Positions 3,649 to 24,157 of a stretch of DNA of 64,000 bases are shown piece after piece. The translations under genes and the position numbers were made by a program. Each line of letters begins with the position of its first letter. The first letter of the stretch is position 1. Under the pieces are notes generated by a model. It was given only the letters and a program-made list of their open reading frames with translations, searched no databases and was not told where the DNA came from. Origin of the DNA: an uncultured Candidatus Saccharibacteria bacterium (lineage in GTDB: Bacteria > Patescibacteriota > Dojkabacteria > J137); contig OZ246402.1 of NCBI GenBank assembly GCA_965230975.1, positions 637,009 through 701,008 on the forward strand, written 5' to 3'.

Positions 3649-4158
3649 CTATAAAATTCTTTCGAATTTGCGAGATGTTGTATCAGGCCAATAAATGTAA
3701 ACCTCTTTAAAGTAATCACTAGATAAAAACTCATTCTCGAATTCTTTACTAATTCGGTCTAAGGTGGAATCAGTAAAAAGAGGATCATAAATCCATAAAA
3801 TCAATATTCCTTTTCCATATTGATCTAAGGCATTTGTATAAGATTTCTTATTTATCTTTCTCTCTACTCCTTCAACAGTAGAATACGAAATCATTTTGTC
3901 TGGTTCAATTATAACTTCTTGGGGGCGTTGATAATCTCCTCCAGTTGCAAATGAGTACACATCTCTTGCTTCTTCTTCGCTCCTAAATACATCAGTTATT
4001 TCTATCCATTCAAGCAACTCCTTATTAGATTTTAGAATTGCATCAGGTGGATCTGGAGTTTCGTGCACTGAATAAATATTTGAATCTGAACTTATATGTT
4101 TTGCAAAATCCGTTGCTACAGCTAGTTCGTGTAGCCTTTTAACTTCTTGTGTTGTCAT
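3649..4158 (-). CDS. Hypothetical protein
   Basis: A 169-aa ORF six nucleotides downstream of the 4165-5007 ORF on the same strand. I recognised no motif. Confidence 0.35.
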   Translation of the reverse strand: MTTQEVKRLHELAVATDFAKHISSDSNIYSVHETPDPPDAILKSNKELLEWIEITDVFRSEEEARDVYSFATGGDYQRPQEVIIEPDKMISYSTVEGVERKINKKSYTNALDQYGKGILILWIYDPLFTDSTLDRISKEFENEFLSSDYFKEVYIYWPDTTSRKFERIL

Positions 4159-4164
4159 GACTAA

Positions 4165-5007
4165 TTATATCAATGTAAATTGAATTGTATTCGATAATCC
4201 ACGTTGTGTTGCTTGTACATTTATTAAGCCTTTTAGAGCATTTACATAATTAATTAGAAAAGAATAATAGGAGTCTACATAGTTAACATAAAAACTATCC
4301 ATCAAGTTTTCCTCAATTATATCTAAATCTTTATAGTTAGCTCTAATACGATACCAGTAGATTAATTCAAATATATTAATTGGGTTTCTATCTAAACTAG
4401 CTCGTTTCTCCCGATCTATTCTTGTTCTAATAGCTCCGCCCTTACAATTTCTTCTTAAATCTTCTGTCTTATATCTATGAATAATCTTAAGTATTTGTAT
4501 ACATCGCTGATCATGATTATTTGTAAGATTACTCAAATTAGCACCAGCTGGAATACTAATTGTCTTTAAACTAACTCCACTTTCCGTCCAATTAAAATAT
4601 GGTTGAGTAAAGCTAATTTCACCGCTTTTTATTAGCTGGGTTATAGCTTTTAATGATCCAATATGTGAAGCATTCAGATTTGTTAGGTTACCTGAATCTA
4701 AATATTGGATTAGGCACATCAAATGATAGATCGTATAGTAACCTTTAACCGGTAGCCAAATACTTAATAGTTTTGCGTATGCATTGTTTGTATGTGCCAT
4801 ATTAACCTCCATTTCTATGCTTTCTAATGTCAAATTAGCTAGTCCTAATTTATTATTAAGAGCTCGACTTGCAGACAGTTGGCTTCTATAAGTCTTATTT
4901 AAATTACAGCTTAACTGACTTGAAATTGCACTTAAAAATTCCAAATAGTTTTGATGGGTTGTAAAATCTTGTGAAGGTTGGAAATTAAAATTTGCAGGTA
5001 ATGGCAT
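4165..5007 (-). CDS. Hypothetical protein
   Basis: A 280-aa ORF. It forms a probable two-gene operon with 3649-4158. Confidence 0.35.
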   Translation of the reverse strand: MPLPANFNFQPSQDFTTHQNYLEFLSAISSQLSCNLNKTYRSQLSASRALNNKLGLANLTLESIEMEVNMAHTNNAYAKLLSIWLPVKGYYTIYHLMCLIQYLDSGNLTNLNASHIGSLKAITQLIKSGEISFTQPYFNWTESGVSLKTISIPAGANLSNLTNNHDQRCIQILKIIHRYKTEDLRRNCKGGAIRTRIDREKRASLDRNPINIFELIYWYRIRANYKDLDIIEENLMDSFYVNYVDSYYSFLINYVNALKGLINVQATQRGLSNTIQFTLI

Positions 5008-5066: not shown

Positions 5067-6098
5067 TTATAACAACATCTCAGCTCCATCCTTATCAACA
5101 AATTTCCACTTCTTATTACTACCAGAAGTCTTCTTATGCTTCTTAAAGAATTTTTTATTATCTTCAACCATATAAACTGTAAAGTAAGTCTTACCTTCTG
5201 AATCTTTTAATTCACGTCCAATAAGTTCACCATTTCGTTGCATTTTTCTAACTGTAGCAGAATGTATTCCAAACTCACTTTTAAATTGCCAACTTGCAAT
5301 CCAAAGATCATGGTTTTTAATAATTTCAGCTGGTATTACTCTTTCTTTTACATTTCTTCTACAATCAACACATTGAATACCATCTAAAGTCCACCAAGAT
5401 TCACTGGCTTTAAGACCTCTAGAGCAAAGATTGCATGAATAACCAGATTCTCGATCTTCTAAAAAGAAACCTTCAGGTTCCTTTTCTAATCTTTTCTTTC
5501 TTAACCTCTCAGTTATTTCTACCTTAGCAAATAATCTTGCTATTTCTGCGGTATTTGAATATTTAGAAAGTTTCTCGGGATCTAATTCTGCTTTAGGTTC
5601 TTCTTTCTTTTTACCAAACAATTCGTGCAAATCTTCATCTCTTTCATATCCTTTTAATCGTCCTGAAATATATCCTAATCTATATGAAGTACCCTCTGGT
5701 GCAAGTCTCCAGTTTGTTATCTCTAAAGCTTCTTTAATTATTTTTTCTAATTCTTTAGTACTATCTTTGGTGTTTCTATTTGTATCATTATCTTGAACAG
5801 AGAATGGGACTATGACGAATCGAGTAATTTCAGGTTTATCTAAAGCTAATCTTTTAAATTTATATTTAACTAGCTTTTTATTAAGTAACTTTTCAAGCTC
5901 AATAATGGTTAGCTTTTCTACATTAAAGGTTTTTTCATAAACAGGATCTTGATGTTTTTGAAGTTCATATTCATATACTTCATTCATAAACTTTAGTTGT
6001 TCAAATCCATCTAGTAACTCCTCGCCTTTTTCTTTTGATAAACAAAACTCAGGTCTATATTTTTCAAGTAATTCTTTCTCTTTTTGTTTTTTCTGCAC
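5067..6098 (-). CDS. Hypothetical Cys-cluster protein. It is possibly the C-terminal portion of a gene interrupted by an in-frame TGA (see 6261-6692)
   Basis: The ORF starts at GTG. It contains CNLCSRG...CVDCRR. The 54 codons upstream, up to the TGA of the preceding ORF, are in the same frame and encode a CPKC-x17-CTSC zinc ribbon with no start codon. Confidence 0.45.
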   Translation of the reverse strand: MQKKQKEKELLEKYRPEFCLSKEKGEELLDGFEQLKFMNEVYEYELQKHQDPVYEKTFNVEKLTIIELEKLLNKKLVKYKFKRLALDKPEITRFVIVPFSVQDNDTNRNTKDSTKELEKIIKEALEITNWRLAPEGTSYRLGYISGRLKGYERDEDLHELFGKKKEEPKAELDPEKLSKYSNTAEIARLFAKVEITERLRKKRLEKEPEGFFLEDRESGYSCNLCSRGLKASESWWTLDGIQCVDCRRNVKERVIPAEIIKNHDLWIASWQFKSEFGIHSATVRKMQRNGELIGRELKDSEGKTYFTVYMVEDNKKFFKKHKKTSGSNKKWKFVDKDGAEMLL

Positions 6099-6260
6099 TC
6101 TTTCTTCTTCATCTTTTTTAAAGTCATTAACTTCTACATCCTTATAACTACATGAAGTACATTTTATTGTAGTAGTAACTATATCACCCTTTCGTTTATA
6201 ACTATGTTTAACTTCTGACTTACATTTTGGACAAAGATCGGGCTCATGTACCCATTCTGT

Positions 6261-6692
6261 TCAATCTTCAAAGATATGTTTTCTTTCTTTACATACAGGA
6301 CATTCAAGGAAGAACAACACTTTCTGAGGTTTAGTATCATGCCAATCAAGTGTTTTTAATTTTACTGTCATTAACTTCTTACAAGTAGTGCATTTGATAG
6401 CTGGTGCAGGAGTATTATCATATTTATCTTGTTTCTGTTTATCCTCATTCATCCATTCATTGATTTCAGATTCTCGATTCTTGTACCTATGGAGCTTAAT
6501 ACTTAGAAGTTGTTGATTAAGGACATAATTCCAGCCTTTATTAATTTCTTCTATTGGAGTATTTTTGATTTCAGGAGATTTGAGTGAATCTTTAGCAACT
6601 TTGTTTATAAATTCGGCTTTATCGAGGCAAAGTTCAATAGTTAGTAAGTCGTAACGATCTTCATAGTATTGTTCATCTTGAAGATATTTCAT
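6261..6692 (-). CDS. Hypothetical zinc-ribbon protein. It is possibly the N-terminal portion of an interrupted gene
   Basis: The C-terminus CTTCKK-x22-CPVCK is a zinc ribbon. The ORF ends with TGA at 6263-6261, in frame with the downstream ORF. It lies immediately downstream of lexA. Confidence 0.45.
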   Translation of the reverse strand: MKYLQDEQYYEDRYDLLTIELCLDKAEFINKVAKDSLKSPEIKNTPIEEINKGWNYVLNQQLLSIKLHRYKNRESEINEWMNEDKQKQDKYDNTPAPAIKCTTCKKLMTVKLKTLDWHDTKPQKVLFFLECPVCKERKHIFED

Positions 6693-6704
6693 TAGATTTA
6701 ATAA

Positions 6705-7331
6705 TTATGCTTTAAAATCTTTGATAATCTGTATTACCTTTCCACAAATGGTGAATTTATATTGATCTTCTATATCTATGAATATAGGAGCATAGAATTT
6801 AGTGCTTTGAGATACTAGAGCAATCCTCTGATTATCTTCGTCAGTATAAATTTTTTTTATACAAGCACACCCGTCAATTATTGATACGACACAATCTCCA
6901 CTTTGAGGTGAAGTATTGGTACTATCAATGATTGCAAAATCTCCACTTTCTAGGTGTTTCCCATCGATCTTGAATTTGTTCATTGAATCTCCTATGGCTC
7001 TTATAGCAAATATTCCTCTCTTTTTTTTGATAATATTTTTGGAAACTTTTAATGAATCTGATATTGTGTCGCTAGCTAATAAGGTAGGTACTCCACAATT
7101 TGCCTCACCAAGTATAGGTATGTCTATAATTTCGTTATACGATTTTAAATCTTGGAAGATAGGTATATCTTTTTGAATAAATCCCTTTTTTTTGACCTGT
7201 TCAAGATGGTATTTTACTGTTTGCGGGTGTGAAACACCAATCAGTTTGCCCAATTTTCTTAAACTAATCTTTTCAATATCATATATTTTAGATATCTCTA
7301 CTATTTTATTCTGTGTATTATTGAAATTCAT
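6705..7331 (-). CDS. lexA: LexA-family transcriptional repressor (S24 peptidase)
   Basis: An N-terminal wHTH (LRKLGKLIGVSHPQTVKYHLEQ) plus AIRAIGDSMNKFKIDGKHLESGDFAIID (Ser nucleophile) and CIKKI (Lys), in the characteristic LexA/S24 arrangement. Length is 208 aa. Confidence 0.8.
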   Translation of the reverse strand: MNFNNTQNKIVEISKIYDIEKISLRKLGKLIGVSHPQTVKYHLEQVKKKGFIQKDIPIFQDLKSYNEIIDIPILGEANCGVPTLLASDTISDSLKVSKNIIKKKRGIFAIRAIGDSMNKFKIDGKHLESGDFAIIDSTNTSPQSGDCVVSIIDGCACIKKIYTDEDNQRIALVSQSTKFYAPIFIDIEDQYKFTICGKVIQIIKDFKA

Positions 7332-7554
7332 AAATAATTATATCACTATAATATACATTCAATCAATACTATTGACTTATTGACGAATCCGTAACATTTA
7401 CCTATTGTTTTTAGTTATGGATTATTTTATAATCTTTTCAATCTGAGGGCAAATAAAAAGCCCCACGCAAAGCATGAGGCAGTTTAGACAACTCCATTAT
7501 GAATTAAAATTCCAGGCTTTGCAAGATAAAAATTTTATTTATTAGGATATTTAT

Positions 7555-7779: not shown

Positions 7780-8322
7780 TTGATGAAGACAATAGAACAA
7801 ACAATAAATATTGCGGGTATAATTTTTACAATAAAGGACGTGATCCTAATAATCCCCTTCTTATTGACAGTCGTTGGCGCTATATATTTAGCAATTAAAA
7901 CGAATATTAGATTCTCACAAAATCTAAAGCGTCCGGTTCTTTTTTTAAGTTTAGACACTGATAAAACCTGTGACTTAACTTTAGAAAAGGAAATAATCAA
8001 AAAAGCAAAATTTAAGATGACGTATGAGGCAGTACAAAATATTAGGAAATTTGAAAGTGGTGAACTTCAGGAATACTCCTGTTTAATTATTGGTTTTCAA
8101 AAAGATAAAAGTAGTTTTGAAGAACTAATTAAGGTCCTTTCACTAGTAAAATCAAATCAAAACATCCCCGTAATTATATATACTTTTGGAACAACTGCAT
8201 TTACTCCTGACCAATACAATAAAATATACGAAACCTATTCATTATATTCGATGGCAAATGTCCCGCTTAGGCTCATATCCGATTTATTTAATATTTTAGC
8301 AATTTATCCCAATGGAAAATAA
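7780..8322 (+). CDS. Small membrane protein with 1-2 N-terminal TM segments and a C-terminal alpha/beta domain
   Basis: Hydrophobic segments IAGIIFTI and VILIIPFLLTVVGAIYLAI lie within the first 40 aa. The stop overlaps the start of the next gene by 11 nt. Confidence 0.45.
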   Translation: MMKTIEQTINIAGIIFTIKDVILIIPFLLTVVGAIYLAIKTNIRFSQNLKRPVLFLSLDTDKTCDLTLEKEIIKKAKFKMTYEAVQNIRKFESGELQEYSCLIIGFQKDKSSFEELIKVLSLVKSNQNIPVIIYTFGTTAFTPDQYNKIYETYSLYSMANVPLRLISDLFNILAIYPNGK

Positions 8323-9400
8323 AACAAAGACAAATTTTAGTGAATATATCTCTGGAAAAATAACACCTAAGGAAAAAGAAAGGTCAATAATTTCTGAGCT
8401 TTACACAGAGCTATCAACAATTCTTGCTGACCAATGTTTTCAGACTGGGTCATACGCTAGATTTACTGCAAACACACCAGTGCACGACCTAGATGTTATT
8501 TGGAAATTACCTTCGGAAACTGCTCAAAGAATAAGGACTATGATGGCAAGGGCAATTAATCCTAATGATGTTGATGTTAAGGATATTCTAAACGAACTAA
8601 GAAATAAACTTGAAAGAGAGTATAAAACTTTAAATCGACAGGTTTCATTTGGAGTTCAATCACATTCCGTTACGTTAGATTTCCAAATTCCAATAGAGAA
8701 CGGAGAAATATTTGACATATCTATTGATGTTGTTCCAGGAATAATATTACCTGAGAATGACAAATTTAATGAACCTCTTTTTCTCGTTCCTGAAATAGCG
8801 CTGATGTCCAGATATAAAAGATTGATGAAGTATGAGAGGAAGGATCCCATAAATTGGATTAAATCAGATCCAAAAGGCTACATTGAATATGCCAGGCATA
8901 TGAATAATGAAAATGAACTATTTAGAAAATGTACCAAATTTCTAAAGTCTTGGAAAAACAAACAAAAGTATCTATTTGAAGATTTTAAATTAAAATCTTT
9001 TCATATAGAACTAATTGTGGCGGACTTAATTAGTAAAAAATCACACCAACTTGGTATAGACGTTTTGAAAGAATTCTTTTTAAAATTGCCAGAGTTTTTA
9101 AAGACGCCTCAATTTGTAGATTTTGCATATGAAAATGATAGTTCAAAGTATGTTGACGAATATATTGAAGATGTTCCAGAAAATGTTAAAAATTATATTT
9201 TAGCTAAGAGCCAAGAGGCTTGGGCTAAGATATCGGTGATTCATAGTGATAATGATACCAACATAGGCAGTATCTTTGATGAGATAACTCAAGTAGATGA
9301 GCAAAGTATCGAACCACAAGTAAAGATTAAATCAAATATTCCATATAAGCCATATTCTATTAATAATGAAGATAACCGAACAAGACTTACTTTACCTTAA
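8312..9400 (+). CDS. Pol-beta-superfamily nucleotidyltransferase (cGAS/DncV-like CD-NTase or SMODS-like)
   Basis: QTGSYARFTANTPVHDLDVIW fits the GS-x9-13-hDhD motif. A third acidic residue sits on a downstream strand (FDISIDVVPG). The 362-aa length and C-terminal helical region fit the family. Confidence 0.55.
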   Translation: MENKTKTNFSEYISGKITPKEKERSIISELYTELSTILADQCFQTGSYARFTANTPVHDLDVIWKLPSETAQRIRTMMARAINPNDVDVKDILNELRNKLEREYKTLNRQVSFGVQSHSVTLDFQIPIENGEIFDISIDVVPGIILPENDKFNEPLFLVPEIALMSRYKRLMKYERKDPINWIKSDPKGYIEYARHMNNENELFRKCTKFLKSWKNKQKYLFEDFKLKSFHIELIVADLISKKSHQLGIDVLKEFFLKLPEFLKTPQFVDFAYENDSSKYVDEYIEDVPENVKNYILAKSQEAWAKISVIHSDNDTNIGSIFDEITQVDEQSIEPQVKIKSNIPYKPYSINNEDNRTRLTLP

Positions 9401-10094
9401 GAACAATCAGCCAGAACTAAAGTTTACCCCACCAAACGTGATTCGTGGCAGGTTAAACTTTACAATGGAATATAATGCCAGTAAATTTCCTGGCTACAAA
9501 ATCTTCCATTTCAATGAAAACTTGGTGGAATCAGAATATTTGATTAAAGACAGTTATAATATTGAGATAAATACTGATGGTGATCTCTATGGATTGCCCG
9601 TATGTTTTTGTGTAGATAAACAAATAAATCAACAATATGAAGATCTTAAAGATAGTCCTAACCTAAAAGTTAATTGCATAAATGATCTTCACCTTAACCA
9701 AGATGCAGACTGCACTTTCTGTCTAGGATTTCCAATGGATTTTATAGATAGAAATTTGGCTAATTTGAGTCTTGAAGATTATCTTGAGGATTTTGTAGTA
9801 CCCTTTCTATATTATCAGACCTATATCTTCCGAAATCGTAAAGAACCTTGGCGTAGTTATGGTCACGGTCCTTTAATAGGACTTGGGGAATATTTTTACG
9901 AAATACGAAACGAAAAATCTAAAGCCAACGAGTCAGTAAAAAGAATTACTCCAACATTCAGAGAAAGGATTAAAGGTGTCAACATCATTTATAGTGAAAA
10001 TTGTATTTGCGGGTCTGGAAGGAAGTGGAGAGATTGCCATTTCAGAGCCGCAATGGGTTTGAAATTTATTAGGAGAATTTTATTAAGAGGTTAG
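9366..10094 (+). CDS. Hypothetical protein with a C-terminal SEC-C-like metal-binding motif
   Basis: The C-terminal CICGSGRKWRDCH resembles the SEC-C motif CPCGSGKKYKxCC. The gene overlaps the NTase gene by 35 nt, consistent with an operon. Confidence 0.45.
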   Translation: MKITEQDLLYLKNNQPELKFTPPNVIRGRLNFTMEYNASKFPGYKIFHFNENLVESEYLIKDSYNIEINTDGDLYGLPVCFCVDKQINQQYEDLKDSPNLKVNCINDLHLNQDADCTFCLGFPMDFIDRNLANLSLEDYLEDFVVPFLYYQTYIFRNRKEPWRSYGHGPLIGLGEYFYEIRNEKSKANESVKRITPTFRERIKGVNIIYSENCICGSGRKWRDCHFRAAMGLKFIRRILLRG

Positions 10095-10192
10095 CTTTAT
10101 ATTGCATAGCTTTCTATATCAATTGCTTAGCCATTCACACAGTTTTGTAATATAATCATTTCATAATACAATCAAGCATCTATAATAGTTTA

Positions 10193-13100
10193 ATGCTTAA
10201 TCAACAAAATATGAACAATGATTTAACATTCATTACAAATGAAGTAGGTAAATCCCTGCTTGATAGATTTAATACATTGATACCGAACTATACAAAAGAA
10301 TTCGACACTATAGTTGGGTACTTTTTTATTAGTGGATTTCATAAGATATATAGATCATTGGAAAACGTTGATAAAGTTAGGGTATTAGTTGGCTTATCTG
10401 TAGACAAAAAAGTTGCAGACCTAGTTACTTCAGACAGTTTACAAGCTAGATTTGACCTTGAATCCACGAAACAAATAAAAAGTGATATTGTAAGGAAAAT
10501 TCAAGATGAGGTTGCTGACTCAGAAGATACAAAAGAAGTTGAAGAGGGTATTAGAAAATTTGTGGAATGGTTAAAGAGTGGTAAGTTAGAAGTAAAGATA
10601 TATACTAAATCACCTCTTCATGCAAAAGTATATATTCTTACTTTTCAGGAAGGCGACAGAGATCCAGGAATGGTGATTACTGGCTCAAGTAATTTAACTG
10701 CAGGTGGTTTGGATGGTAACTTAGAGTTTAATGTTCAATTGCGAGATCCACGTGACTATTCCTATGCACTTGAGAAGTTTGAGCAACTTTGGGCTGAATC
10801 TGTAGAAATCACAGATCAATATATAACTACAGTTGAGCAGAAAACTCATATCTCTGATTCTATTACTCCTTACGAATTATACTTGAAATTTCTATATGAA
10901 TATTTCAAGAATGATTTAAACTATGAAAATGATGATGAGGATACACTACCAGAGGGCTATTTGGATCTAGATTATCAAAGACAAGCTGTTATAAATGCAA
11001 AAAGAATATTGGAGGAATATGGTGGTGTGTTTATTGCTGATGTAGTTGGACTTGGTAAAACTTTTATTACTTCAAGATTAGTTAAAGCACTAAATCAAAA
11101 AACATTAGTTATAGCTCCACCAGCGCTACTAGATGAGAATAATCCAGGTTCCTGGTTCAATGTATTTGATGAATTCGGGATTAGACATCGAAAATTTGAA
11201 TCAATTGGAAAGTTAGATCATATTCTTGCAATGGGCATACATGAGAATGTGGAAGTTGTAGTAATAGATGAATCCCATAGATTTAGAAATCAATCTACAG
11301 AAACGTATAATAAATTGGCTGAAATTTGCAAAGGGAAAAAAGTCATATTGGTTAGTGCAACGCCGTTTAACAATACTCCAAGTGATCTATTGTCTCAAAT
11401 TAAATTATTTCAGAATTCTAGAAAAAGTAGTATACCGAACCTCTCTGATCTAGATAATTTCTTCTCAAGGTTGAATGGTAAACTAAAGGGTCTAGATAGG
11501 AAGAGAGATTATGAAGAATATATGTCTACAGTAAAGGATAATGCTAAAGAAATAAGGGAAAAAATTTTGAAGTATTTGATGGTTAGAAGAACAAGAAGTG
11601 AAATTAGAAAATACTACGAAACTGATTTGTCCAAACAAAAATTAAGATTCCCTGATGTGATCGAACCAACCCCAGTATTTTACGAATTTAATGATCTCGA
11701 AGACAGAGCATTTCAAGAAACTATGGATTTTATTAAAGTCTTTAAATATAGTCGATATACTCCAATGCTCTACTATAAGGGAACAATTACTGAACAAGAG
11801 AAGCAAGGTCAAAGAAATTTAACTACTTTTATGAAGATGTTACTTGTAAAAAGATTTGAAAGTAGCATATATGCTTTTAAGAAAACTTTAGAAAGGTTTA
11901 TACATTCGTATGAGCTAATGATAGAAGAATATGGGAAAGGCAATGTTTATGTTAGTAATAAAAATGCAAACAAGTTATTCGAACTACTTTCAGAGCAAGA
12001 TGAAGATGGCTTATTAGATTTAATAAGTGGTGGCAAGGCAGAGGTATATAAATCTATAGACTTTAGAGACGAAATCTTGCTTGATATGAAATTTGACTTG
12101 AATATTCTAAAACAAGTATCTGCCAGCTGGGAAAACGTAAAACGTGATGTAAAACTTGAGAGGTTTTTAAATATACTTGAGTCTGATAAGGTTTTAAACC
12201 GAAATAAATTATTAATATTCACTGAATCACAGGAAACTGCTGATTATTTATCAGATAAAATTGGAGAAAAGTACCCTAACTCGGTTTTAAATTATACTGG
12301 AGCATCTTCTATTTCAAAAAGGTTTGAAGTGATTACTAATTTTGATGCAAAGTCAAAAGTACAAGAAGATACATATAGAATACTAGTTACAACTGATGTC
12401 TTGGCTGAGGGTGTTAATTTACATAGATCTAACTGTGTAATTAATTACGATATTCCATGGAACCCGACAAGAATGATTCAAAGAGTGGGTAGAATAAATA
12501 GAGTTGATACTAAATTCAAAGAAATTTATACTTACAATTTCTTCCCGACATCACAAGCAAATGATGAATTAAAATTAAAGGAATCGGCTGAAGCTAAAAT
12601 TAATATGTTTATTGAGTTACTAGGTAATGATGCAAGACTGTTAACTGATGGAGAGGAGATTAAGTCACATGACTTATTTAACAAATTGCTTTCAAAAGAA
12701 ACTTTAACTGGAGAGGACGAGAGTTTTGAAAGTGAATTAAAATACCTACAAGTAATACAGTCCATTAGAGACACAGATGTGGACTTATTTTCTAAGATAA
12801 AGGTCCTACCTAAAAAAGCACGTACAGGTAAAGTTTCCAAAGCAAACGAAATCGCACTAGTTTCCTATTTCCAAAAAGGAAATATTGATAAGTTCATACT
12901 CACAGCTGGCAATCTAACGAGTGAACTTGGTTTTTTTGATGCAGTAAAACTTATTGAATCTGAGGCGGACGTAAAGTCAAAAAAAATCTCTGAGGATTAT
13001 TACGAATATTTAAGCAAGAACAAGAATCTGTTTGATGAGTTAATAAATCAAAATATAGATGAAACTATTATCAAAAGAGGTGGTGATTCTGCTCAAAAAC

Positions 13101-13396
13101 TTGTTAAAAGATTAGGAATTTTGCTTAAGGGTATGAATAATTTAACAGAAGATCAAGACGAATATTTGAACAAGGTTATGGATAAAGCCGAAGAAGGAGC
13201 ACTATCGCGTGGAGTTGCAAAAAAATTATGGGATCTAATTAACTCTAGCGATATAGGATTAGATTCACAAAAAGTGTACTTTTCGATAAAAAAGAATTTA
13301 TCAGATAACTGGCTGAAAGATACCTTCACCGAATCAAGCCATATATCGGAAGGGAAAAGAGAAGTAATATTGTCTCAAATGATATTTCCAAATTAA
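10193..13396 (+). CDS. PLD-family nuclease fused to an SNF2-family helicase
   Basis: N-terminal HKD motif LHAKVYILTF...GSSNLTAGG. SNF2 motifs: I ADVVGLGKTFIT, II VVVIDESHRFRN, III LVSATPFNN, VI VINYDIPWNPTRMIQRVGRINR. Confidence 0.8.
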   Translation: MLNQQNMNNDLTFITNEVGKSLLDRFNTLIPNYTKEFDTIVGYFFISGFHKIYRSLENVDKVRVLVGLSVDKKVADLVTSDSLQARFDLESTKQIKSDIVRKIQDEVADSEDTKEVEEGIRKFVEWLKSGKLEVKIYTKSPLHAKVYILTFQEGDRDPGMVITGSSNLTAGGLDGNLEFNVQLRDPRDYSYALEKFEQLWAESVEITDQYITTVEQKTHISDSITPYELYLKFLYEYFKNDLNYENDDEDTLPEGYLDLDYQRQAVINAKRILEEYGGVFIADVVGLGKTFITSRLVKALNQKTLVIAPPALLDENNPGSWFNVFDEFGIRHRKFESIGKLDHILAMGIHENVEVVVIDESHRFRNQSTETYNKLAEICKGKKVILVSATPFNNTPSDLLSQIKLFQNSRKSSIPNLSDLDNFFSRLNGKLKGLDRKRDYEEYMSTVKDNAKEIREKILKYLMVRRTRSEIRKYYETDLSKQKLRFPDVIEPTPVFYEFNDLEDRAFQETMDFIKVFKYSRYTPMLYYKGTITEQEKQGQRNLTTFMKMLLVKRFESSIYAFKKTLERFIHSYELMIEEYGKGNVYVSNKNANKLFELLSEQDEDGLLDLISGGKAEVYKSIDFRDEILLDMKFDLNILKQVSASWENVKRDVKLERFLNILESDKVLNRNKLLIFTESQETADYLSDKIGEKYPNSVLNYTGASSISKRFEVITNFDAKSKVQEDTYRILVTTDVLAEGVNLHRSNCVINYDIPWNPTRMIQRVGRINRVDTKFKEIYTYNFFPTSQANDELKLKESAEAKINMFIELLGNDARLLTDGEEIKSHDLFNKLLSKETLTGEDESFESELKYLQVIQSIRDTDVDLFSKIKVLPKKARTGKVSKANEIALVSYFQKGNIDKFILTAGNLTSELGFFDAVKLIESEADVKSKKISEDYYEYLSKNKNLFDELINQNIDETIIKRGGDSAQKLVKRLGILLKGMNNLTEDQDEYLNKVMDKAEEGALSRGVAKKLWDLINSSDIGLDSQKVYFSIKKNLSDNWLKDTFTESSHISEGKREVILSQMIFPN

Positions 13397-16300
13397 TGAA
13401 TACTCAAGCCAAACTCAAAGTTAAAACACTGTTTGAAAATAGATTTAATAAGGAAAAGTTCGTCTCATTTATTGCTGACTTGCTTAATGAAGTTGAAAAT
13501 GACACCTCCTTCCCTCCACTAAGGGGAAGATATATTAAAGCACCATTTCAAAATGGAATTCATGAATATGAGAGGGTTTGTAAATATATAGATTCATTAG
13601 GAAACCAGATAGATGTACTTATAGTTAAATTGAAAGACAAAAGTAAATTAGAAAATGCAAGGACTTTTCAAAGGAACTTCGTTGTTGACTATCTTAATGG
13701 TGGGCGAGGAGGAAAACTTAAAGATGGTGCATTAGTTGCTTTTTATTCCGATGATATTTCAGATTGGAGATTTTCTTTTGTAAAGCTGGAATATGAACTT
13801 AAAGAAGAAAACGGAAAAATAAAAGAGAACAAAAAAATGAATTCAGCTAAGCGATACTCATTCCTTGTTGGTGAGAATGAAAATTCGCACACGGCTCAAA
13901 GCCAGTTACTACCTCTGCTCGAAGATGATATTAATAACCCTACTTTAAAACAAATTGAAGATGTGTTCGGAGTTGAGATAGTAACTAAAGAGTTTTTTGA
14001 AAAATATAAAGAGCTCTTTTTACAAGTTAACAACCATCTCGAAGAAATTGTAAGAAAAGATACCAATGTAAAAAATGATTTTGAAAGTAAAGAAATTAGT
14101 ATAGGTGACTTTGCTAAGAAATTATTAGGTCAAATAGTGTTCCTATACTTTTTACAAAAAAAAGGATGGTTCGGTGTTCCCATGACCAAAAAATGGGGAG
14201 AAGGAGATAGAAGATTTTTAAGAAGTATTTTTGAAAAATCTAATAAAGAGAGTAAGAACTTTTTTAATGATTATCTGGAACCTCTATTTTATGAGGCGTT
14301 AGCCAAAGAAAGAGATGGTAATTACTATAGTAGATTCGAGTGTAAAATTCCTTTTTTGAATGGAGGATTATTTGACCCTATCGGTGATTATGATTGGTGG
14401 AATACTGTTATCAATTTGCCAAATGATCTCTTTTCAAATAACTATATTTCCCAAGATAAACATAAAGATATAGGTACGGGAATCTTGGATGTTTTTGATA
14501 GATACAACTTCACAGTTAGGGAAGATGAACCTCTTGAAAAAGAAGTAGCAATCGATCCTGAAATGCTCGGCAAGGTATTCGAGAATATGCTTGAAGTAAA
14601 AGATCGAAAATCGAAAGGTACATATTATACTCCTCGAGAAATTGTTCACTATATGTGCCAGGAAAGTTTAATAAATTATCTAGAGAGTAATTTAAGTACG
14701 GTTAGTAGAGATGATCTAGTTTACCTTGTAAAAAAAGCCGAGTACGATAAGGAAAAAGAGCAAGCTGGGGTTGAGGGTATAAAAGTTTATGAAATCAACT
14801 CAAAATTTCCGGAGGATATTAAGATTTATTCAAATGAAATTGATCAGTTGCTTGCGGATATTAAAGTATGTGACCCAGCAATTGGTTCTGGTGCATTCCC
14901 AGTTGGTATGATGAATGAAATTGTAAAAGTCAGGTCTATCTTAACAGAATTCTTGCCAAACAATAGTAATCGTAGTGAGTATGAATTTAAAAGACATGCT
15001 ATAGCGAATTCTATACATGGAGTTGATATAGATCAAGGTGCAGTTGAAATTGCGAAACTTAGACTTTGGCTCTCTCTTATTGTTGATGAAGACGATATTA
15101 GCAACATAAAGCCCTTACCAAATCTTGATTATAAAATTATGCAGGGTAATAGTCTTATTGAGGAATTTGAAGGAATAAAACTATTTGATGATAGCCTATT
15201 AAACAATGATGATTCCTATAAACATGAAATTATGAAGCTGAAGGATAGACAGCACGTTCTTCAAAAAGAATACTTTGAAATTTACCATGATAATACAAAG
15301 AAAAGTGAAACAGATCAGATTAACAAGGAATTAGAATTGATTAAAAAGAAGCTAATTGATCTTAATAAACCTCAGAAAGTAAACGATGGCGAAATTGATC
15401 TATTTAAGACTAGAGATGAAGCCAAAGAGAAAGCTGATCAGTTACAAGTATTACAAAAGAAGTTTTTTGAAGCATCACAAAAGTCTGAAAAGGAAAGAAT
15501 TAAGCAACAAATTGATGATTTGATATGGGATTTGATTGAGACTACAGTTAGACATGAAGGTAGTAGCGATAAATTGGCCCATATACAAAAAATTAGAAGG
15601 TCTAATAATAAACCCTTCTTTTTATGGAAATTGAATTTTGCTGATGTGTTTAAAGAAAAAGGAGGTTTTGATGTTGTAATTGCAAATCCACCGTATGTAA
15701 AAGAATATACGCAAAAAGATGCATTTGATGGATTGAGAAAATCACCATATTATAAAGGGAAAATGGATCTGTGGTACTTTTTTGCTTGTTTTGGAATAGA
15801 TATTCTTCATGAAGGGGGAATACTTACATTAATTGCACAAAATAACTGGGTTACAAGTTATGGAGCTTCGAAGATGAGAGATAAAATAATTACTGAAACA
15901 CAAATATTAACACTAATCGATTTTGGAAATTACATGATTTTTGACACTGCTGATATCCAAACTATGGTTATGATTTTCAGTAAAGTAAAGCCATTGGGAA
16001 ACTATCATTTCAACCTAAGAAGAATAGTAGGAAAGCCTCACAGCCCCTCAATAATTAATGACTTACTTGAGGAGAAGAAGGCTGAGAATATAGAAATATT
16101 ACATCCCAATATTAAGCCGGATTCATTAATCAATAAAAGTTTCTCATTCAATAATGTTCAATCTAATAAACTACTAAATAAGTTGACTAAGGACTCCATA
16201 TTTCTTAATGGTGATAAAGAAATTGCTCAAGGTATTGTGCCTAATCCAGATGTAGTAAATAGTAGAAATATAAAAAAGATACCTGAATCAATGGTCCGAA

Positions 16301-17055
16301 GTTTGGAGATACAGGTAGGAGATGGCGTATTTGTAGTTGATGAGAATAAATTTTCTGACTTAACACTGAAAGAAAAGTTAATATTGAAACCACTCTACGA
16401 ACCATTTCAATTTGAAAAATATTTCATACCAAAGAAGACTTCAAAGAAGTTAATTTACTTTATAAAAGGTTTAAATCCAGCAGATTATCCCACACTCATA
16501 GAACATCTCAGTAAGTACAAAGAAATAATGCTTGATCGTAGAGAAAATATAAATGGAAGACTTGAATATTATCATTTGCATTGGCCAAGAGACGAAAAGT
16601 TCTTTAAAGAAGGAAAAAAAATTCTTTGTGTAAGAAAATCAAGTTATCCATTGTTTATTTACACCGAAAATCCAGCTTATGTAATGATGTCTGTAAATAT
16701 TATTAAATCTGATAGAATTAACCTTAAGTACCTTACTGCAATACTTAATAGTAGAATTGTAGCTTTCTGGTTACAAAAAAGAGGAAAATTACAAGGTTCA
16801 AACTTTCAACTAGATAAAGAGCCCCTAACCGAAATTCCAATACGACTAGCGAGCGTAGATAGTGTTAAATCAATTGTTGATATAGTTGACCAAATTCTCG
16901 CCATAACAGAAAAGTCAGATTATCTAAACAATGAAATTGAGAAATCTCAAATAAAATCTCTACAAACAAAAATTGATCAAATGATTTATAAACTGTACGA
17001 ATTATCTGATGAAGAGATTAAAATAGTTAAAGAAGAAACTCAGCATCTTTATTAA
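13396..17055 (+). CDS. Large gamma-class N6-adenine DNA methyltransferase (Eco57I/PglX/DrmMI-like), 1219 aa
   Basis: Motif X GTYYTPREIV, motif I DPAIGSGAFP, motif IV VIANPPYV. There is a long coiled-coil insertion between motifs I and IV and a C-terminal TRD-like region. The start overlaps the upstream stop (TAATG). Confidence 0.8.
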   Translation: MNTQAKLKVKTLFENRFNKEKFVSFIADLLNEVENDTSFPPLRGRYIKAPFQNGIHEYERVCKYIDSLGNQIDVLIVKLKDKSKLENARTFQRNFVVDYLNGGRGGKLKDGALVAFYSDDISDWRFSFVKLEYELKEENGKIKENKKMNSAKRYSFLVGENENSHTAQSQLLPLLEDDINNPTLKQIEDVFGVEIVTKEFFEKYKELFLQVNNHLEEIVRKDTNVKNDFESKEISIGDFAKKLLGQIVFLYFLQKKGWFGVPMTKKWGEGDRRFLRSIFEKSNKESKNFFNDYLEPLFYEALAKERDGNYYSRFECKIPFLNGGLFDPIGDYDWWNTVINLPNDLFSNNYISQDKHKDIGTGILDVFDRYNFTVREDEPLEKEVAIDPEMLGKVFENMLEVKDRKSKGTYYTPREIVHYMCQESLINYLESNLSTVSRDDLVYLVKKAEYDKEKEQAGVEGIKVYEINSKFPEDIKIYSNEIDQLLADIKVCDPAIGSGAFPVGMMNEIVKVRSILTEFLPNNSNRSEYEFKRHAIANSIHGVDIDQGAVEIAKLRLWLSLIVDEDDISNIKPLPNLDYKIMQGNSLIEEFEGIKLFDDSLLNNDDSYKHEIMKLKDRQHVLQKEYFEIYHDNTKKSETDQINKELELIKKKLIDLNKPQKVNDGEIDLFKTRDEAKEKADQLQVLQKKFFEASQKSEKERIKQQIDDLIWDLIETTVRHEGSSDKLAHIQKIRRSNNKPFFLWKLNFADVFKEKGGFDVVIANPPYVKEYTQKDAFDGLRKSPYYKGKMDLWYFFACFGIDILHEGGILTLIAQNNWVTSYGASKMRDKIITETQILTLIDFGNYMIFDTADIQTMVMIFSKVKPLGNYHFNLRRIVGKPHSPSIINDLLEEKKAENIEILHPNIKPDSLINKSFSFNNVQSNKLLNKLTKDSIFLNGDKEIAQGIVPNPDVVNSRNIKKIPESMVRSLEIQVGDGVFVVDENKFSDLTLKEKLILKPLYEPFQFEKYFIPKKTSKKLIYFIKGLNPADYPTLIEHLSKYKEIMLDRRENINGRLEYYHLHWPRDEKFFKEGKKILCVRKSSYPLFIYTENPAYVMMSVNIIKSDRINLKYLTAILNSRIVAFWLQKRGKLQGSNFQLDKEPLTEIPIRLASVDSVKSIVDIVDQILAITEKSDYLNNEIEKSQIKSLQTKIDQMIYKLYELSDEEIKIVKEETQHLY

Positions 17056-17069
17056 ATGTTTTCATAATT

Positions 17070-17774
17070 ATGAATTCTGCAAACCAAGGTTCATCATTTG
17101 ATTCATATAAAAGACATACAGAAAAGATCCTTAGTACTTTTGTTGGTATACAGAAAATAGCAAATCTTCCTGGAGAAACTATCAAAAAAGCTTATGCTCC
17201 AATTGAAAAGATCTTTGAACAGTTAAGGTACATGATTTATGTCGATCCAGATACTTTCAATACTCTTTCTGGTTTATATCAATCTGTTCAAATAGATAGC
17301 AGTATAAAATACCCTGATAAATATATAATCTACACCAATGCAGTAAAAACTCCTCAATATGATGGTCAGCAATTTATTGTTACCAAAGAGATTGCTTTAG
17401 TAATTGCCAAATTAGATTATCAGTATAGGCATAAGATTTATGGGAAAGTGAATAAAGTGCCTTTTAATAAACACTCTTCAGTACTAGAGATAGATGGTAC
17501 CTCTTTTCAAATCAAAAAGGATTTAGAAACTTTTAACTTATGCTTAATGTTATTTGGGTCAAAACAATATATTGAAAAGATATGGAAATGGGAAGATATA
17601 AAGACAAAAGTACTCGATCACGGAAAAGAAGTTATAGATGATGAAAATGCATTTAAACTCAAAGTATATCGTTTAAATAAGAGAATTGAGAATAAAATTG
17701 GCTTTATAGATATCATTTTGTACAAAAATAAAACTGTCCGTGTAAATCCCCAATATATCTACTTTTTCAAATAG
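17070..17774 (+). CDS. Hypothetical protein
   Basis: A 234-aa ORF immediately after the methyltransferase. No recognisable motif. Confidence 0.4.
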   Translation: MNSANQGSSFDSYKRHTEKILSTFVGIQKIANLPGETIKKAYAPIEKIFEQLRYMIYVDPDTFNTLSGLYQSVQIDSSIKYPDKYIIYTNAVKTPQYDGQQFIVTKEIALVIAKLDYQYRHKIYGKVNKVPFNKHSSVLEIDGTSFQIKKDLETFNLCLMLFGSKQYIEKIWKWEDIKTKVLDHGKEVIDDENAFKLKVYRLNKRIENKIGFIDIILYKNKTVRVNPQYIYFFK

Positions 17775-17841
17775 CAACCGAACCTTACCGAACACCACTT
17801 TCTGCAACAATACAATAAATTATTTATTATTTTATTGTTGT

Positions 17842-19167: not shown

Positions 19168-19565
19168 AAAATCTAAAAAAAGAACTAATTGAACAACTAC
19201 GAAAAACTCCGATTATAGAAGTTGCTTGTAAGAAAGTTGGAATTGGTAGAGCGACCTTTTATAGATGGAAGAAAAGAGATGGCAAATTTGCTGATGAAGC
19301 AGAATCAGCAATTCTTGAAGGATCACAAGTTGTAAATGATATGGCTGAAAGTCAGTTAATTAATTCTATCAAGAACGGAAATTTAACTGGAATTATTTTT
19401 TGGCTTAAGAATCATCATAAACAATACTCACCTAAACTTGAAGTAACAACAAAAAGTGCAGATCTACCACTAACAGAAGAACAAAAGGAAGTTATTCGAA
19501 AGTCATTAAGTATGGCTTTTAATTTATCTATTAATGATACAAACGATGAACATGAAACAAATTAA
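19164..19565 (+). CDS. HTH protein, candidate terminase small subunit
   Basis: HTH KKVGIGRATFYRWKK. Its position immediately upstream of the terminase large subunit overlaps it, in the typical TerS-TerL arrangement. Confidence 0.4.
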   Translation: MKNLKKELIEQLRKTPIIEVACKKVGIGRATFYRWKKRDGKFADEAESAILEGSQVVNDMAESQLINSIKNGNLTGIIFWLKNHHKQYSPKLEVTTKSADLPLTEEQKEVIRKSLSMAFNLSINDTNDEHETN

Positions 19566-21084: not shown

Positions 21085-21126
21085 AATCTCCTAGACTTAA
21101 TAAGAGAACAGCGGTACTGTCTTGGT

Positions 21127-22443: not shown

Positions 22444-22469
22444 ATTAATTCCCTTTAATTATAATTCTA

Positions 22470-23216: not shown

Positions 23217-23524
23217 ATAGAGAACAACATTCGGACCTAAAGTATCATTCCTGAATAATCAATACTCACAACAAAAAAGCTTAGAACCAGAGAGGTATGT
23301 TTAAAAGCCTAATATGGCTATTTTCAGGCTAAAACAACGATTTTGAGACATTTACGAATTATTGGAAGCCAATGTACAACACCATTCAACGCTACCAAGG
23401 TAGGTAGACGGGTCTTGCGAAACCATTTTAAAATGGCGGGGGCGACGATATTCTCACTAAAGTTTTTAAGTCTATATAAATGCCAATGGGTAAATAATTC
23501 CATTGGCATTTAAGATTAAGTTTA

Positions 23525-24066: not shown

Positions 24067-24157
24067 TGGCGGAGGAGACAGGATTCGAACCTGCGTCCCA
24101 GTTGCCCGGGAACAGTCTTTCCAGGACTGCGCACTAGACCAACTATGCGACTCCTCC
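24067..24157 (-). tRNA. tRNA-Ser (anticodon GGA), with a long variable arm and CCA encoded
   Basis: The minus strand reads GGAGGAGUCGCAUAGUUGGUCUAGUGCGCAGUCCUGGAAAGACUG...GGUUCGAAUCCUGUCUCCUCCGCCA. The anticodon loop is CUGGAAA, the T-loop is GGUUCGAAUCC, and the acceptor stem is 7 bp. Confidence 0.85.

What the first reader, a model, noticed from the sequence alone, without database searches (positions are those of the whole stretch)
5067..6692. Gene downstream of lexA is split by a single in-frame TGA, with tandem zinc ribbons spanning the break
ORFs 6261-6692 and 5067-6098 are in the same frame and separated only by TGA at 6263-6261. The 54 intervening codons contain no start codon, yet they encode a clean CPKC-x17-CTSC zinc ribbon directly after the CTTC...CPVC ribbon that ends the upstream ORF. 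Coding therefore appears continuous across the stop. Options are a recent nonsense mutation (pseudogene), a sequencing error, programmed UGA readthrough or selenocysteine, or UGA reassignment. Reassignment is unlikely because other genes in the window are intact under the standard code.
Basis: seen in the sequence. Interest (0 to 1): 0.55.

Follow-up and report, generated by a model that had tools for sequence, protein, structure and literature searches.

The report
Nonsense-mutated zinc-ribbon gene on mobile island
A single G-to-T change has turned a conserved glycine codon into a stop inside an uncharacterised 541-codon zinc-ribbon gene carried on a mobile defence island of a Dojkabacteria-like (Patescibacteria) genome, so it is an ordinary young pseudogene and not recoding, selenocysteine or a changed genetic code.

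Summary
The minus-strand frame 5067-6704 is open except for one TGA at 6261-6263. The next 54 codons have no ATG, GTG or TTG, yet they encode a second zinc ribbon.

More than 650 homologs are single proteins of about 545 aa, all named ones from Patescibacteria. They have a nearly invariant Gly at this position, coded GGA in the close relatives. The break is therefore a GGA-to-TGA nonsense substitution.

- **Selenocysteine:** rejected. Homologs have Gly, not Cys, and there is no hairpin after the UGA.
- **UGA reassignment:** rejected. This is the only in-frame TGA joining two long open stretches in 64 kb.
- **Conserved readthrough:** rejected. The stop is not conserved among orthologs.
- **Assembly error:** unlikely. 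A separate Logan assembly is identical over 4.6 kb.

The gene lies at the far end of a roughly 20 kb island next to tRNA-Ser. The island carries a large serine recombinase, a CBASS system and restriction-modification genes. Close relatives (about 90% identical, dS about 0.45) carry their own lesions: TAA at codon 130, TGA at 167, a +1 frameshift at 171, and 5' deletions.

Two points remain unexplained. The point lesions cluster at codons 130-171, and the same TGA at codon 144 occurs in a second genome on a different haplotype.

Verdict: ordinary, low interest.

The parts
5067..6692 (-). Ancestral gene of 541 codons. It belongs to an uncharacterised family of about 545 aa whose named members are all from Patescibacteria. 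Predicted layout: helical hairpin, two zinc ribbons, coiled coil, alpha/beta domain, third zinc ribbon, winged helix.
   Evidence: The closest intact relatives, P0001 and P0002, are 89% and 87% identical and 541 aa long.
6261..6263 (-). In-frame TGA at codon 144. It replaces GGA, a Gly conserved in at least 90% of homologs.
   Evidence: GGA is found at this codon in L001, L002, L004, L005 and L014.
6261..6692 (-). N-terminal fragment ORF of 143 aa plus the stop. It covers the helical hairpin and zinc ribbon 1 (Cys codons at 6291-6392).
6099..6260 (-). Gap of 54 codons with no ATG, GTG or TTG. It encodes zinc ribbon 2 (Cys codons at 6150-6233) and cannot be translated without readthrough.
   Evidence: All four Cys are invariant in the family.
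5067..6098 (-). C-terminal fragment ORF of 343 aa, from GTG at codon 199. It covers the coiled coil, the alpha/beta domain, zinc ribbon 3 (5361-5435) and the winged helix (about 5169-5288).
   Evidence: (P0004 is this ORF as deposited).
6705..7331 (-). LexA/CI-like repressor (HTH plus S24 peptidase), 12 nt upstream in the same orientation. It is probably the island's repressor rather than the host LexA.
   Evidence: A LexA-like gene also neighbours a 38%-identical homolog in L021.
7337..7366 (-). Promoter-like site TTGATT-18-TATAAT with a TG extension, ending 5 nt before the ATG of the LexA-like gene. This would give a leaderless transcript for the operon.
   Evidence: This is a consensus match only.
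3649..5007 (-). Two downstream ORFs in the same orientation: 280 aa with no family match, and 169 aa matching phrog_23471.
   Evidence: A homolog of the 169-aa ORF lies downstream of the intact copy in L016.
7780..10094 (+). CBASS operon transcribed divergently: transmembrane effector, oligonucleotide cyclase and E2-like protein.
10151..17055 (+). HKD+Snf2 helicase-nuclease and a type IIG restriction-modification enzyme.
17746..22443 (+). Mobile-element module: ParB-N6/N4 methylase, small HTH protein, terminase-like protein and large serine recombinase (21085-22443).
23250..23461 (-). Displaced tRNA 3' fragment (..CGTCGCCCCCGCCA) followed by a conserved sequence of about 200 nt (the ~230 nt comparable repeat in L019/L020). 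In relatives this sequence directly follows tRNA-Ser and abuts the 5'-truncated gene copies. It marks the island's left end.
   Evidence: alignment A2.
24067..24157 (-). tRNA-Ser(GGA), the integration landmark of the island.

Best explanation
This is a young nonsense mutation. One G-to-T transversion changed GGA (Gly144) to TGA in a 541-codon accessory gene.

The gene is the distal gene of an integrated island of about 20 kb next to tRNA-Ser. The island carries a large serine recombinase and a terminase-like gene alongside CBASS, restriction-modification and Snf2 defence genes.

Under the standard genetic code, which this organism uses, translation ends after 143 residues. The next 54 codons encode the second, invariant zinc ribbon and have no start codon. 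The canonical full-length protein is therefore lost, apart from whatever trace arises from ordinary leaky UGA readthrough.

**Shown here:**
- The ancestral gene was continuous.
- The ancestral codon was GGA.
- The organism uses the standard code.
- The base call is reproduced in a separate assembly.
- The gene sits on an island.
- Sister lineages carry independent lesions.

**Inferred:**
- The lesion is inactivating.
- It is recent, corresponding to less than about 3% neutral divergence.
- It is part of the usual decay of integrated elements.

The protein's own function is unknown. From its build (three zinc ribbons, a coiled coil and a C-terminal winged helix) and its constant defence-island setting beside LexA-like, HTH or NTPase genes, I infer a nucleic-acid-binding regulator or sensor of island or defence functions.
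For: **Continuity.** There are 652 homologs. The 117 more distant of the best 120 cover 94-100% of the fused sequence as single proteins. G144 is conserved in at least 90% of 58 diverse homologs, and all 12 ribbon Cys are invariant.

**Ancestral codon.** The codon is GGA in L001, L002, L004, L005 and L014.

**Standard code.**
- ORFs of 981-1248 aa contain no TGA.
- Six ORFs end in TGA.
- This is the only ORF fusion produced when TGA is read as sense.
- YchF places the organism near Candidatus Dojkabacteria.

**Not an artefact.** Logan contig L003 is identical over 4,626 nt.

**Recent.** Of 4,860 possible single-base changes, 331 would create a stop. The chance of no second stop falls below 4% after 3% neutral divergence, yet none is present. 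dN/dS is about 0.1 in every segment.

**Decay context, all verified in codon register:**
- L001 has GAA to TAA at codon 130.
- L014 has CGA to TGA at codon 167.
- L028 has a +1 A insertion at codon 171.
- L002 is truncated at codon 119, L013 at 126, L019 at 323 and L020 at 415.
- L013 and L019 were made by microhomology deletions from the conserved sequence after tRNA-Ser into the gene.

**Island.** tRNA-Ser, a displaced tRNA fragment, the large serine recombinase, the terminase-like gene and the ParB-methylase are all present.

**Horizontal spread.** The gene is about 90% identical to the BroJett037 copies, while YchF is at most 66% identical to any YchF found on a contig as long as BroJett037's.
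Against: - There is no sign of relaxed constraint in the window's copy. Private changes are 12 non-synonymous to 16 synonymous, against a neutral expectation of about 3:1. This fits a very recent lesion equally well as a tolerated one.
- The point lesions in the close clade cluster at codons 130-171 instead of being spread over the gene.
- The identical TGA at codon 144 occurs in a second genome (BroJett037, L013) on a different haplotype. Simple neutral decay does not predict this.
- All five lesion-bearing alleles with DNA in hand have a start-capable codon (GTG or TTG) at position 199, against one of four intact alleles. That count is biased by how the alleles were found.
Confidence: 0.8

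Rival explanations
1. The break is tolerated or even favoured. The C-terminal module of 343 aa would be made on its own from the internal GTG/TTG at codon 199, and perhaps the 143-aa N-terminal piece as well. Repeated hits at codons 118-171 would then reflect selection to uncouple or silence the zinc-ribbon part while keeping the rest.
For: - Five independent point lesions fall at codons 130-171, and two 5' truncations at codons 119 and 126. All leave the downstream 343-416 codons intact with no second lesion.
- dN/dS is about 0.1 and private N:S ratios are 0.4-1.1 in lesion carriers.
- Codon 199 is GTG or TTG in all five carriers and TTA in three of four intact alleles.
- The family's modules occur separately elsewhere. 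L024 has only the N-terminal 360 aa, and L025-L027 have only residues 360-519.
- Genes in this window lack obvious Shine-Dalgarno sequences, so an internal start in A-rich RNA is conceivable.
Against: - All eight Cys of ribbons 1 and 2 are invariant across the family, so the canonical function needs them.
- Deeper remnants also exist: truncations at codons 323 and 415, a lost stop codon, and a C-terminal frameshift in P0125. These show plain decay.
- The lesion census is biased towards long C-terminal ORFs.
- The association at codon 199 has Fisher p of about 0.05 before allowing for that bias.
Confidence: 0.12
2. The UGA is read through at a useful rate, as Gly or Trp, so a functional full-length protein is still made. 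This could be plain leakiness or an incipient ambiguous UGA=Gly decoding of the kind fixed in Gracilibacteria and Absconditabacteria.
For: - The stop replaces a conserved Gly. UGA=Gly is the known reassignment in two other Patescibacteria lineages (code 25; PMC8629427).
- The same TGA is present in a second genome.
- Both flanks remain intact.
- UGA is the leakiest bacterial stop codon (general knowledge).
Against: - This is the only such TGA in 64 kb, or in about 197 kb including related loci.
- TGA ends real genes in this window.
- GGA is only 7 of 88 one-step routes to TGA, so a Gly origin is an unremarkable coincidence of roughly 8%.
- The second carrier, L013, is a 5'-truncated dead remnant.
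- Sister lesions are TAA and a frameshift, which no UGA decoding can rescue.
- There is no stimulatory RNA structure.
- The organism groups with Dojkabacteria, not with the code-25 lineages.
Confidence: 0.05
3. The TGA is a sequencing or assembly error, and the real gene is intact.
For: The difference from GGA is a single base. I could not inspect reads.
Against: - The Logan assembly of SRR12762304 gives the same base within 4,626 identical nucleotides. The 343-aa product is recorded on three contigs.
- Both fragments are deposited as separate proteins from the 1.19 Mb NCBI contig.
- Comparable lesions in relatives are each seen in more than one sample.
Confidence: 0.02
4. UGA here encodes selenocysteine.
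For: An in-frame UGA in a cysteine-rich metal-binding region fits the pattern superficially.
Against: - Homologs have Gly, never Cys, at this column.
- The 106 nt around and after the UGA fold worse than shuffled sequence (z = +1.05).
- No tRNA-Sec is found in the window.
Confidence: 0.01

Closest known systems
Ordinary bacterial pseudogene created by a nonsense substitution in an accessory or mobile-element gene
   Same: - A single-base change of a conserved sense codon to a stop.
- Orthologs are continuous.
- The gene sits on a horizontally moving island.
- Sister lineages show independent stops, a frameshift and deletions.
   Different: - There is still no second lesion and no detectable relaxation of constraint.
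- Lesions in the clade are clustered.
- One lesion is duplicated exactly in another genome.
Genetic code 25 (UGA = Gly) of Gracilibacteria and Absconditabacteria (PMC8629427)
   Same: - The organism belongs to the same superphylum, Patescibacteria.
- The UGA stands where homologs have Gly.
   Different: - Only one in-frame UGA occurs in 64 kb.
- UGA terminates other genes.
- The organism is Dojkabacteria-like.
- So this is neither a member of that system nor working like it.
Bacterial selenoprotein genes (UGA plus a SECIS hairpin)
   Same: An in-frame UGA inside an otherwise conserved ORF.
   Different: - The homologous residue is Gly.
- There is no hairpin.
- No Sec machinery was seen.
Integrative islands at tRNA genes that carry defence cargo, such as prophage remnants and phage-satellite-like islands with serine recombinases
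   Same: - tRNA-Ser landmark and a displaced tRNA 3' fragment.
- A large serine recombinase, a terminase-like gene and a CI/LexA-like repressor.
- Cargo of CBASS and restriction-modification genes.
   Different: - No capsid or tail genes are seen.
- The right-hand boundary is not mapped.
- The terminal zinc-ribbon gene has no counterpart in Pfam, PHROGs, PADLOC or the PDB.

Membership tests
Pseudogene by nonsense mutation | Orthologs encode one continuous protein across the break | tested here: met
   117 of the 120 best hits are single proteins covering 94-100% of the fused sequence. Searches show the alignment running through the site.
Pseudogene by nonsense mutation | The stop differs by one base from a conserved sense codon | tested here: met
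   GGA in five close relatives against TGA here. Gly is conserved in at least 90% of 58 homologs.
Pseudogene by nonsense mutation | Essential parts downstream cannot be translated by re-initiation | tested here: met
   There are 54 codons without ATG, GTG or TTG, and they contain four invariant Cys.
Pseudogene by nonsense mutation | The base call is real | tested here: inconclusive
   The sequence is identical in Logan assembly L003. Raw reads could not be inspected, and the run may be the same one used for the NCBI genome.
Pseudogene by nonsense mutation | Relaxed selection after the lesion | tested here: inconclusive
   dN/dS is about 0.1, private N:S is 12:16, and there is no second lesion. 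This fits either a very young lesion or a tolerated one.
Selenoprotein gene | Cys or Sec at the aligned position in homologs | tested here: not met
   The residue is Gly.
Selenoprotein gene | SECIS hairpin just 3' of the UGA | tested here: not met
   Minimum free energy is -13.3 kcal/mol against a shuffled mean of -16.5, z = +1.05.
Selenoprotein gene | selA, selB, selC and selD present in the genome | not testable with these tools
   Only 64 kb is available. It holds three ordinary tRNAs and no tRNA-Sec.
Genetic code 25 (UGA = Gly) | Frequent in-frame UGA at Gly positions across many genes | tested here: not met
   There is one case in 64 kb. ORFs of about 1,000 aa or more contain none.
Genetic code 25 (UGA = Gly) | UGA is not used as a terminator | tested here: not met
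   Six ORFs of at least 100 codons end in TGA and would run on only 3-14 codons if it were read through. I did not check homolog C-termini for these ORFs.
Genetic code 25 (UGA = Gly) | tRNA-Gly(UCA) present and RF2 absent | not testable with these tools
   The window holds only tRNA-Gly(GCC) and no release-factor gene.
Programmed stop-codon readthrough | The stop codon is conserved among orthologs | tested here: not met
   Orthologs have a sense codon here. TGA at codon 144 was seen in only one other sequence, a truncated remnant.
Programmed stop-codon readthrough | A stimulatory RNA structure or context | tested here: not met
   One search finds no structure. The context is UGA-A.
LexA (SOS repressor) for the upstream gene | Reaches the NCBIfam equivalog score | tested here: not met
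   TIGR00498 scores 70.6 bits against a cut-off of 110.95. The S24 domain is clearly present at 6e-18. The best PHROG match is phrog_4, a transcriptional repressor.
Integrative island at a tRNA gene | tRNA landmark, duplicated tRNA 3' end and a recombinase gene next to it | tested here: met
   tRNA-Ser at 24067-24157, a tRNA fragment at about 23447-23461, and a large serine recombinase at 21085-22443.
Integrative island at a tRNA gene | A defined second boundary (attR) and an empty site in a relative | not tested
   The right end lies somewhere between 3570 and 5067. No empty-site comparison was available.

The most novel reading that the evidence does not exclude
The stop may not be a dead end. 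The exact GGA-to-TGA change recurs on two haplotypes. Five independent point lesions are packed into codons 130-171, and each leaves the downstream ORF untouched.

This could mean that these Dojkabacteria-like lineages tolerate or favour interrupting the gene at the zinc-ribbon linker. Two mechanisms are conceivable:
- Appreciable UGA decoding as Gly, an intermediate step towards the code-25 state known elsewhere in Patescibacteria.
- Selection for a stand-alone C-terminal module started at codon 199.
Probability: 0.07. Interest if true: 0.6.

Novelty: new member of a known kind. Interest (0 to 1): 0.2.

Why it matters
**Annotation.** The deposited genome lists two unrelated-looking hypothetical proteins of 143 and 343 aa. 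These should be one pseudogene of a 541-codon gene. The case also shows that an in-frame UGA at a Gly position in a Patescibacteria genome is not by itself evidence for code 25.

**By-products of some wider use:**
- A large, uncharacterised family of about 545 aa, known only from Patescibacteria, with three zinc ribbons and no detectable structural relative. It is consistently found in defence islands and is a candidate for functional study.
- A family of islands linked to tRNA-Ser that moves between distant Dojkabacteria-like hosts and decays by microhomology deletions.

If the minority reading were right, it would bear on how stop-codon reassignment begins. The evidence here does not support that reading.

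Tried and rejected
**Family and structure searches that found nothing**
- Pfam, NCBIfam, PADLOC and PHROGs scans of both fragments and of intact P0001 gave no family, only sub-threshold zinc-ribbon noise.
- The AlphaFold2 model of P0001 is good (pLDDT 85). Foldseek against the PDB and BFVD found nothing below E = 0.01.
- A PDB sequence-profile search found nothing.

**Checks on the stop codon**
- SECIS or readthrough structure: none.
- Reading TGA as sense fuses only this ORF pair.
- A release-factor motif search in the window found nothing.
- I looked for a nearby repeat that could template the G-to-T change. Only chance 7-9-mers turned up.

**Searches for more relatives**
- A JGI metagenome scan found no close relatives.
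- A search with the 143-aa fragment returned only 3 hits, because the word index retrieves few candidates for short queries.
- Literature searches on BroJett037, on in-frame stops in Patescibacteria and on pseudogenes in defence islands of candidate phyla radiation bacteria returned nothing.

**Idea considered and dropped: the gene is itself a mobile cassette or insertion sequence**
- Homology between relatives starts exactly at the ATG and ends at the stop.
- There is no room for terminal repeats, because upstream gaps are only 4-22 nt.
- Subsets of relatives share their flanks.
- The pattern therefore reflects a conserved ORF inside rearranging islands.
Full report
**1. The observation**

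On the minus strand, the frame from 6704 to 5067 is open except for one TGA at 6263-6261. From ATG 6692 it holds 541 codons. The ORF list gives 6261-6692 (143 aa) and 5067-6098 (343 aa, GTG start) in the same frame.

The 54 codons between them (6260-6099) have no ATG, GTG or TTG. They encode CPKC-x20-CTSC.

This follows CTTC-x26-CPVC in the upstream ORF. The TGA, at codon 144, lies in the linker between the two ribbons.

In the whole 64 kb window this is the only TGA that separates two open stretches of at least 70 codons in one frame. It is also the only ORF pair that fuses if TGA is read as sense.

**2. Orthologs**

I searched with the fused sequence and found 652 homologs. The 117 more distant of the best 120 are single proteins of 529-649 aa covering 94-100% of the query. 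All named hits come from Patescibacteria: Dojkabacteria, Shapirobacteria, Daviesbacteria and the Microgenomates group.

Two intact relatives are 89% and 87% identical and exactly 541 aa long (P0001, P0002). In an alignment of 58 diverse members:
- G144 is conserved in at least 90%.
- All eight Cys of ribbons 1 and 2 are invariant.
- Four Cys of a third ribbon (C420, C423, C441, C444) and a WW pair are also invariant.

In the close relatives whose DNA I fetched, codon 144 is GGA. The break is therefore a single G-to-T change of a conserved glycine codon.

**3.

*Code reassignment.* The window has 31% G+C. Its ORFs of 981-1248 aa contain no TGA. Six ORFs of at least 100 codons end in TGA and would extend by only 3-14 codons if it were sense.

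The YchF encoded in the window is closest to proteins named Candidatus Dojkabacteria. It is not close to the two Patescibacteria lineages that read UGA as Gly (PMC8629427).

That the lost residue is Gly is a modest coincidence. GGA accounts for 7 of the 88 one-step routes to TGA in this gene.

*Selenocysteine.* Homologs have Gly, not Cys. The 106 nt around and after the UGA fold worse than shuffled sequence (z = +1.05). No tRNA-Sec is present in the window.

*Programmed readthrough.* The stop is not conserved among orthologs, and there is no stimulatory structure.

*Error.* A Logan assembly of run SRR12762304 (L003) is identical over 4,626 nt, including the TGA. Both fragments are on record from the 1.19 Mb NCBI contig. 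I could not see reads.

**4. Where the gene sits**

The surroundings are a defence island:
- A CBASS operon at 7780-10094.
- An HKD+Snf2 protein at 10151-13396.
- A type IIG restriction-modification enzyme at 13309-17055.

Further along is a mobile-element module:
- A ParB-methylase at 17746-19167.
- A small HTH protein.
- A terminase-like protein at 19510-21084.
- A large serine recombinase at 21085-22443.

Then comes tRNA-Ser(GGA) at 24067-24157. Between the recombinase and the tRNA, at about 23461-23250, lies a displaced tRNA 3' fragment followed by a conserved sequence of about 230 nt. Ordinary genes resume at 2731-3570 (glycosyltransferase) and from 25720 (UvrA, Mfd, YchF).

The gene is thus the distal gene of an integrated island of about 20 kb. 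The upstream 'lexA' has a clear S24 domain but reaches only 70.6 bits against the LexA equivalog cut-off of 110.95. Its best PHROG match is a phage-type repressor. It is better called a LexA/CI-like island repressor.

A promoter-like site ends 5 nt before that repressor's ATG, which would give a leaderless operon transcript.

Distant homologs of the zinc-ribbon gene are also in defence-type neighbourhoods, directly beside a variable partner:
- A KAP NTPase.
- An AAA_21 protein.
- A small HTH protein.
- In a 38%-identical homolog, a LexA-like gene followed by a SMODS cyclase.

**5. Close relatives show a gene in decay**

All close copies align to the window in codon register without indels, apart from one insertion. 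Pairwise dS is 0.36-0.63 and dN/dS is 0.07-0.14 in every segment. The alleles are mosaics, so they recombine.

| Locus | State of the gene |
|---|---|
| L004, L005, L016, L018 | Intact |
| L001 | GAA to TAA at codon 130 |
| L014, L015 | CGA to TGA at codon 167 |
| L028 | Extra A at codon 171 |
| L002 | 5' deletion; homology begins at codon 119 |
| L013 (= L012, L017) | 5' deletion to codon 126, plus TGA at codon 144 |
| L019 | 5' deletion to codon 323, stop codon lost |
| L020 | 5' deletion to codon 415 |

P0125, seen only at the protein level, has a C-terminal frameshift.

The truncated copies in L013, L019 and L020 each lie 80-1100 nt after a tRNA-Ser. They are preceded by the same conserved sequence that the window has at 23461-23250. 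The junctions in L013 and L019 show 6-7 nt of microhomology.

These copies are scars left when the island's interior was deleted. One genome, Patescibacteria group bacterium BroJett037, holds an intact copy and two such scars.

The gene is about 90% identical between the window and that genome. YchF is at most 66% identical to any YchF found on a contig as long as BroJett037's. The island is therefore shared horizontally between distant hosts.

**6. Age and consequence of the lesion**

Of the 4,860 possible single-base changes in the gene, 331 would create a stop. After 3% neutral divergence the chance of no further stop is below 4%.

The window's copy has no second lesion. Its private changes are 12 non-synonymous to 16 synonymous, far from the neutral ratio of about 3:1.

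Either the lesion is young relative to the branch length (dS about 0.2) or it is tolerated. Because ribbon 2 is invariant in the family and cannot be translated here, I take the canonical function as lost. Ordinary UGA leakiness could still give traces of full-length protein.

No second copy from the 1.19 Mb contig appears among the best 120 homologs. This is probably the genome's only copy.

**7. What the protein is**

The family matches nothing in Pfam, NCBIfam, PADLOC or PHROGs. An AlphaFold2 model of P0001 is confident (pLDDT 85). It shows:
- A long helical hairpin (residues 7-93).
- Two zinc ribbons (96-190).
- A coiled coil (191-246).
- A small alpha/beta domain (about 290-350).
- A long helix, then a third zinc ribbon (416-441).
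- A winged-helix-like end (469-508).

Foldseek found nothing below E = 0.01 in the PDB or in viral models. A PDB sequence profile also found nothing.

From the build and the neighbourhoods I infer a nucleic-acid-binding regulator or sensor tied to island or defence functions. This is inference only.

**8. What remains odd**

The point lesions of the close clade sit at codons 130, 144, 144, 167 and 171, although stop-creating sites are spread along the gene. The TGA at codon 144 in BroJett037 is on a haplotype that differs from L002 (GGA) at 2 of 180 nt and from the window at 8 of 180 nt.

That points to a parallel mutation, a very short conversion tract or an old polymorphism. I found no templating repeat.

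Codon 199 is start-capable in all five lesion carriers and in one of four intact alleles. My census is biased towards long C-terminal ORFs, and the BroJett037 carrier is a dead remnant. I therefore give the adaptive or recoding readings about 0.07 to 0.12.

**9. Verdict**

Interest is low (0.2). The uncharacterised protein family and the island family are the more useful by-products.

Noticed in passing
window 7780-10094 (+): A complete-looking CBASS operon: transmembrane effector (7780-8322), oligonucleotide cyclase (8312-9400) and E2-like protein (9366-10094). It is transcribed divergently from the LexA-like/zinc-ribbon operon. A 59-aa DUF1508 ORF lies at 7555-7734.
   Followed up: partly
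window 10151-17055 (+): An HKD+Snf2 protein (1081 aa) overlaps by 88 nt with a type IIG restriction-modification enzyme (1248 aa). They may form a two-gene defence unit.
   Followed up: no
window 17746-23216 (+): A mobile-element module without any capsid or tail genes: ParB-N6/N4 methylase, an HTH_Tnp_1_2 protein, a protein with a terminase RNaseH-like domain, a large serine recombinase and a DUF4160 protein. It could be a prophage remnant or a satellite-like island.
   Followed up: partly
window 23250-24157 (-): tRNA-Ser(GGA) is followed by an insert of about 600 nt holding a small ORF (about 23525-23776). After that comes a displaced tRNA 3' fragment and a conserved sequence of about 230 nt. 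The conserved sequence also follows tRNA-Ser(GCT) or tRNA-Ser(GGA) in L013, L019 and L020. It has no Rfam match and its role, perhaps an att site or element end, is not established.
   Followed up: partly
L013/L017, L016 and L020 (BOLA01000001.1, Patescibacteria group bacterium BroJett037): One genome carries three copies of the gene: an intact copy, a copy truncated at codon 126 that also has TGA at codon 144, and a remnant starting at codon 415. The two damaged copies each lie just after a tRNA-Ser gene.
   Followed up: yes
L013 about 4765 and L019 about 3000: The junctions between the conserved post-tRNA sequence and the truncated gene show microhomology of 6-7 nt (GTTGTT and AGAGATA). This indicates illegitimate deletions that removed the island interior.
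   Followed up: yes
L001 against L004, codons 1-128; L013 against L002, codons 127-186: Alleles are mosaics. Blocks that are identical or nearly so switch abruptly to about 10% divergence. This implies frequent recombination or gene conversion among copies.
   Followed up: partly
window 37051-38187 (+) compared with 5067-6692 (-): The housekeeping YchF has few close relatives (84%, 78% and 73% identical, then 68% or less). It is at most 66% identical to any YchF on a contig of at least 1.11 Mb. The zinc-ribbon gene is about 90% identical in many lineages, which points to horizontal spread of the island gene.
   Followed up: partly
L024 8001-9080; L023 8001-9190; L025-L027: The family's modules occur separately in IMG/VR contigs. 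L024 is a natural form of about 360 aa lacking the C-terminal ribbon and winged helix. L023 has an in-frame stop at codon 74. L025-L027 have proteins matching only residues 360-519.
   Followed up: no
window 7337-7366 (-): The best promoter-like site in the region (TTGATT-18-TATAAT with a TG extension) ends 5 nt before the ATG of the LexA-like gene, suggesting a leaderless mRNA. Genes here generally lack an obvious Shine-Dalgarno sequence.
   Followed up: no
window 33520-36465 (+): A 981-aa protein with a prokaryotic SLOG/LSDAT domain, a domain often tied to nucleotide-signal sensing in conflict systems. It lies outside the island, among housekeeping genes.
   Followed up: no
L028 2936-3481; L021 1154-2362; L014 1-2933: Relatives of the gene sit next to other defence genes: a Pycsar-type transmembrane effector (PycTM), Shedu SduA, and BrxC/BrxD-like and helicase genes. 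DUF2779 lies directly upstream in both L014 and L021.
   Followed up: no
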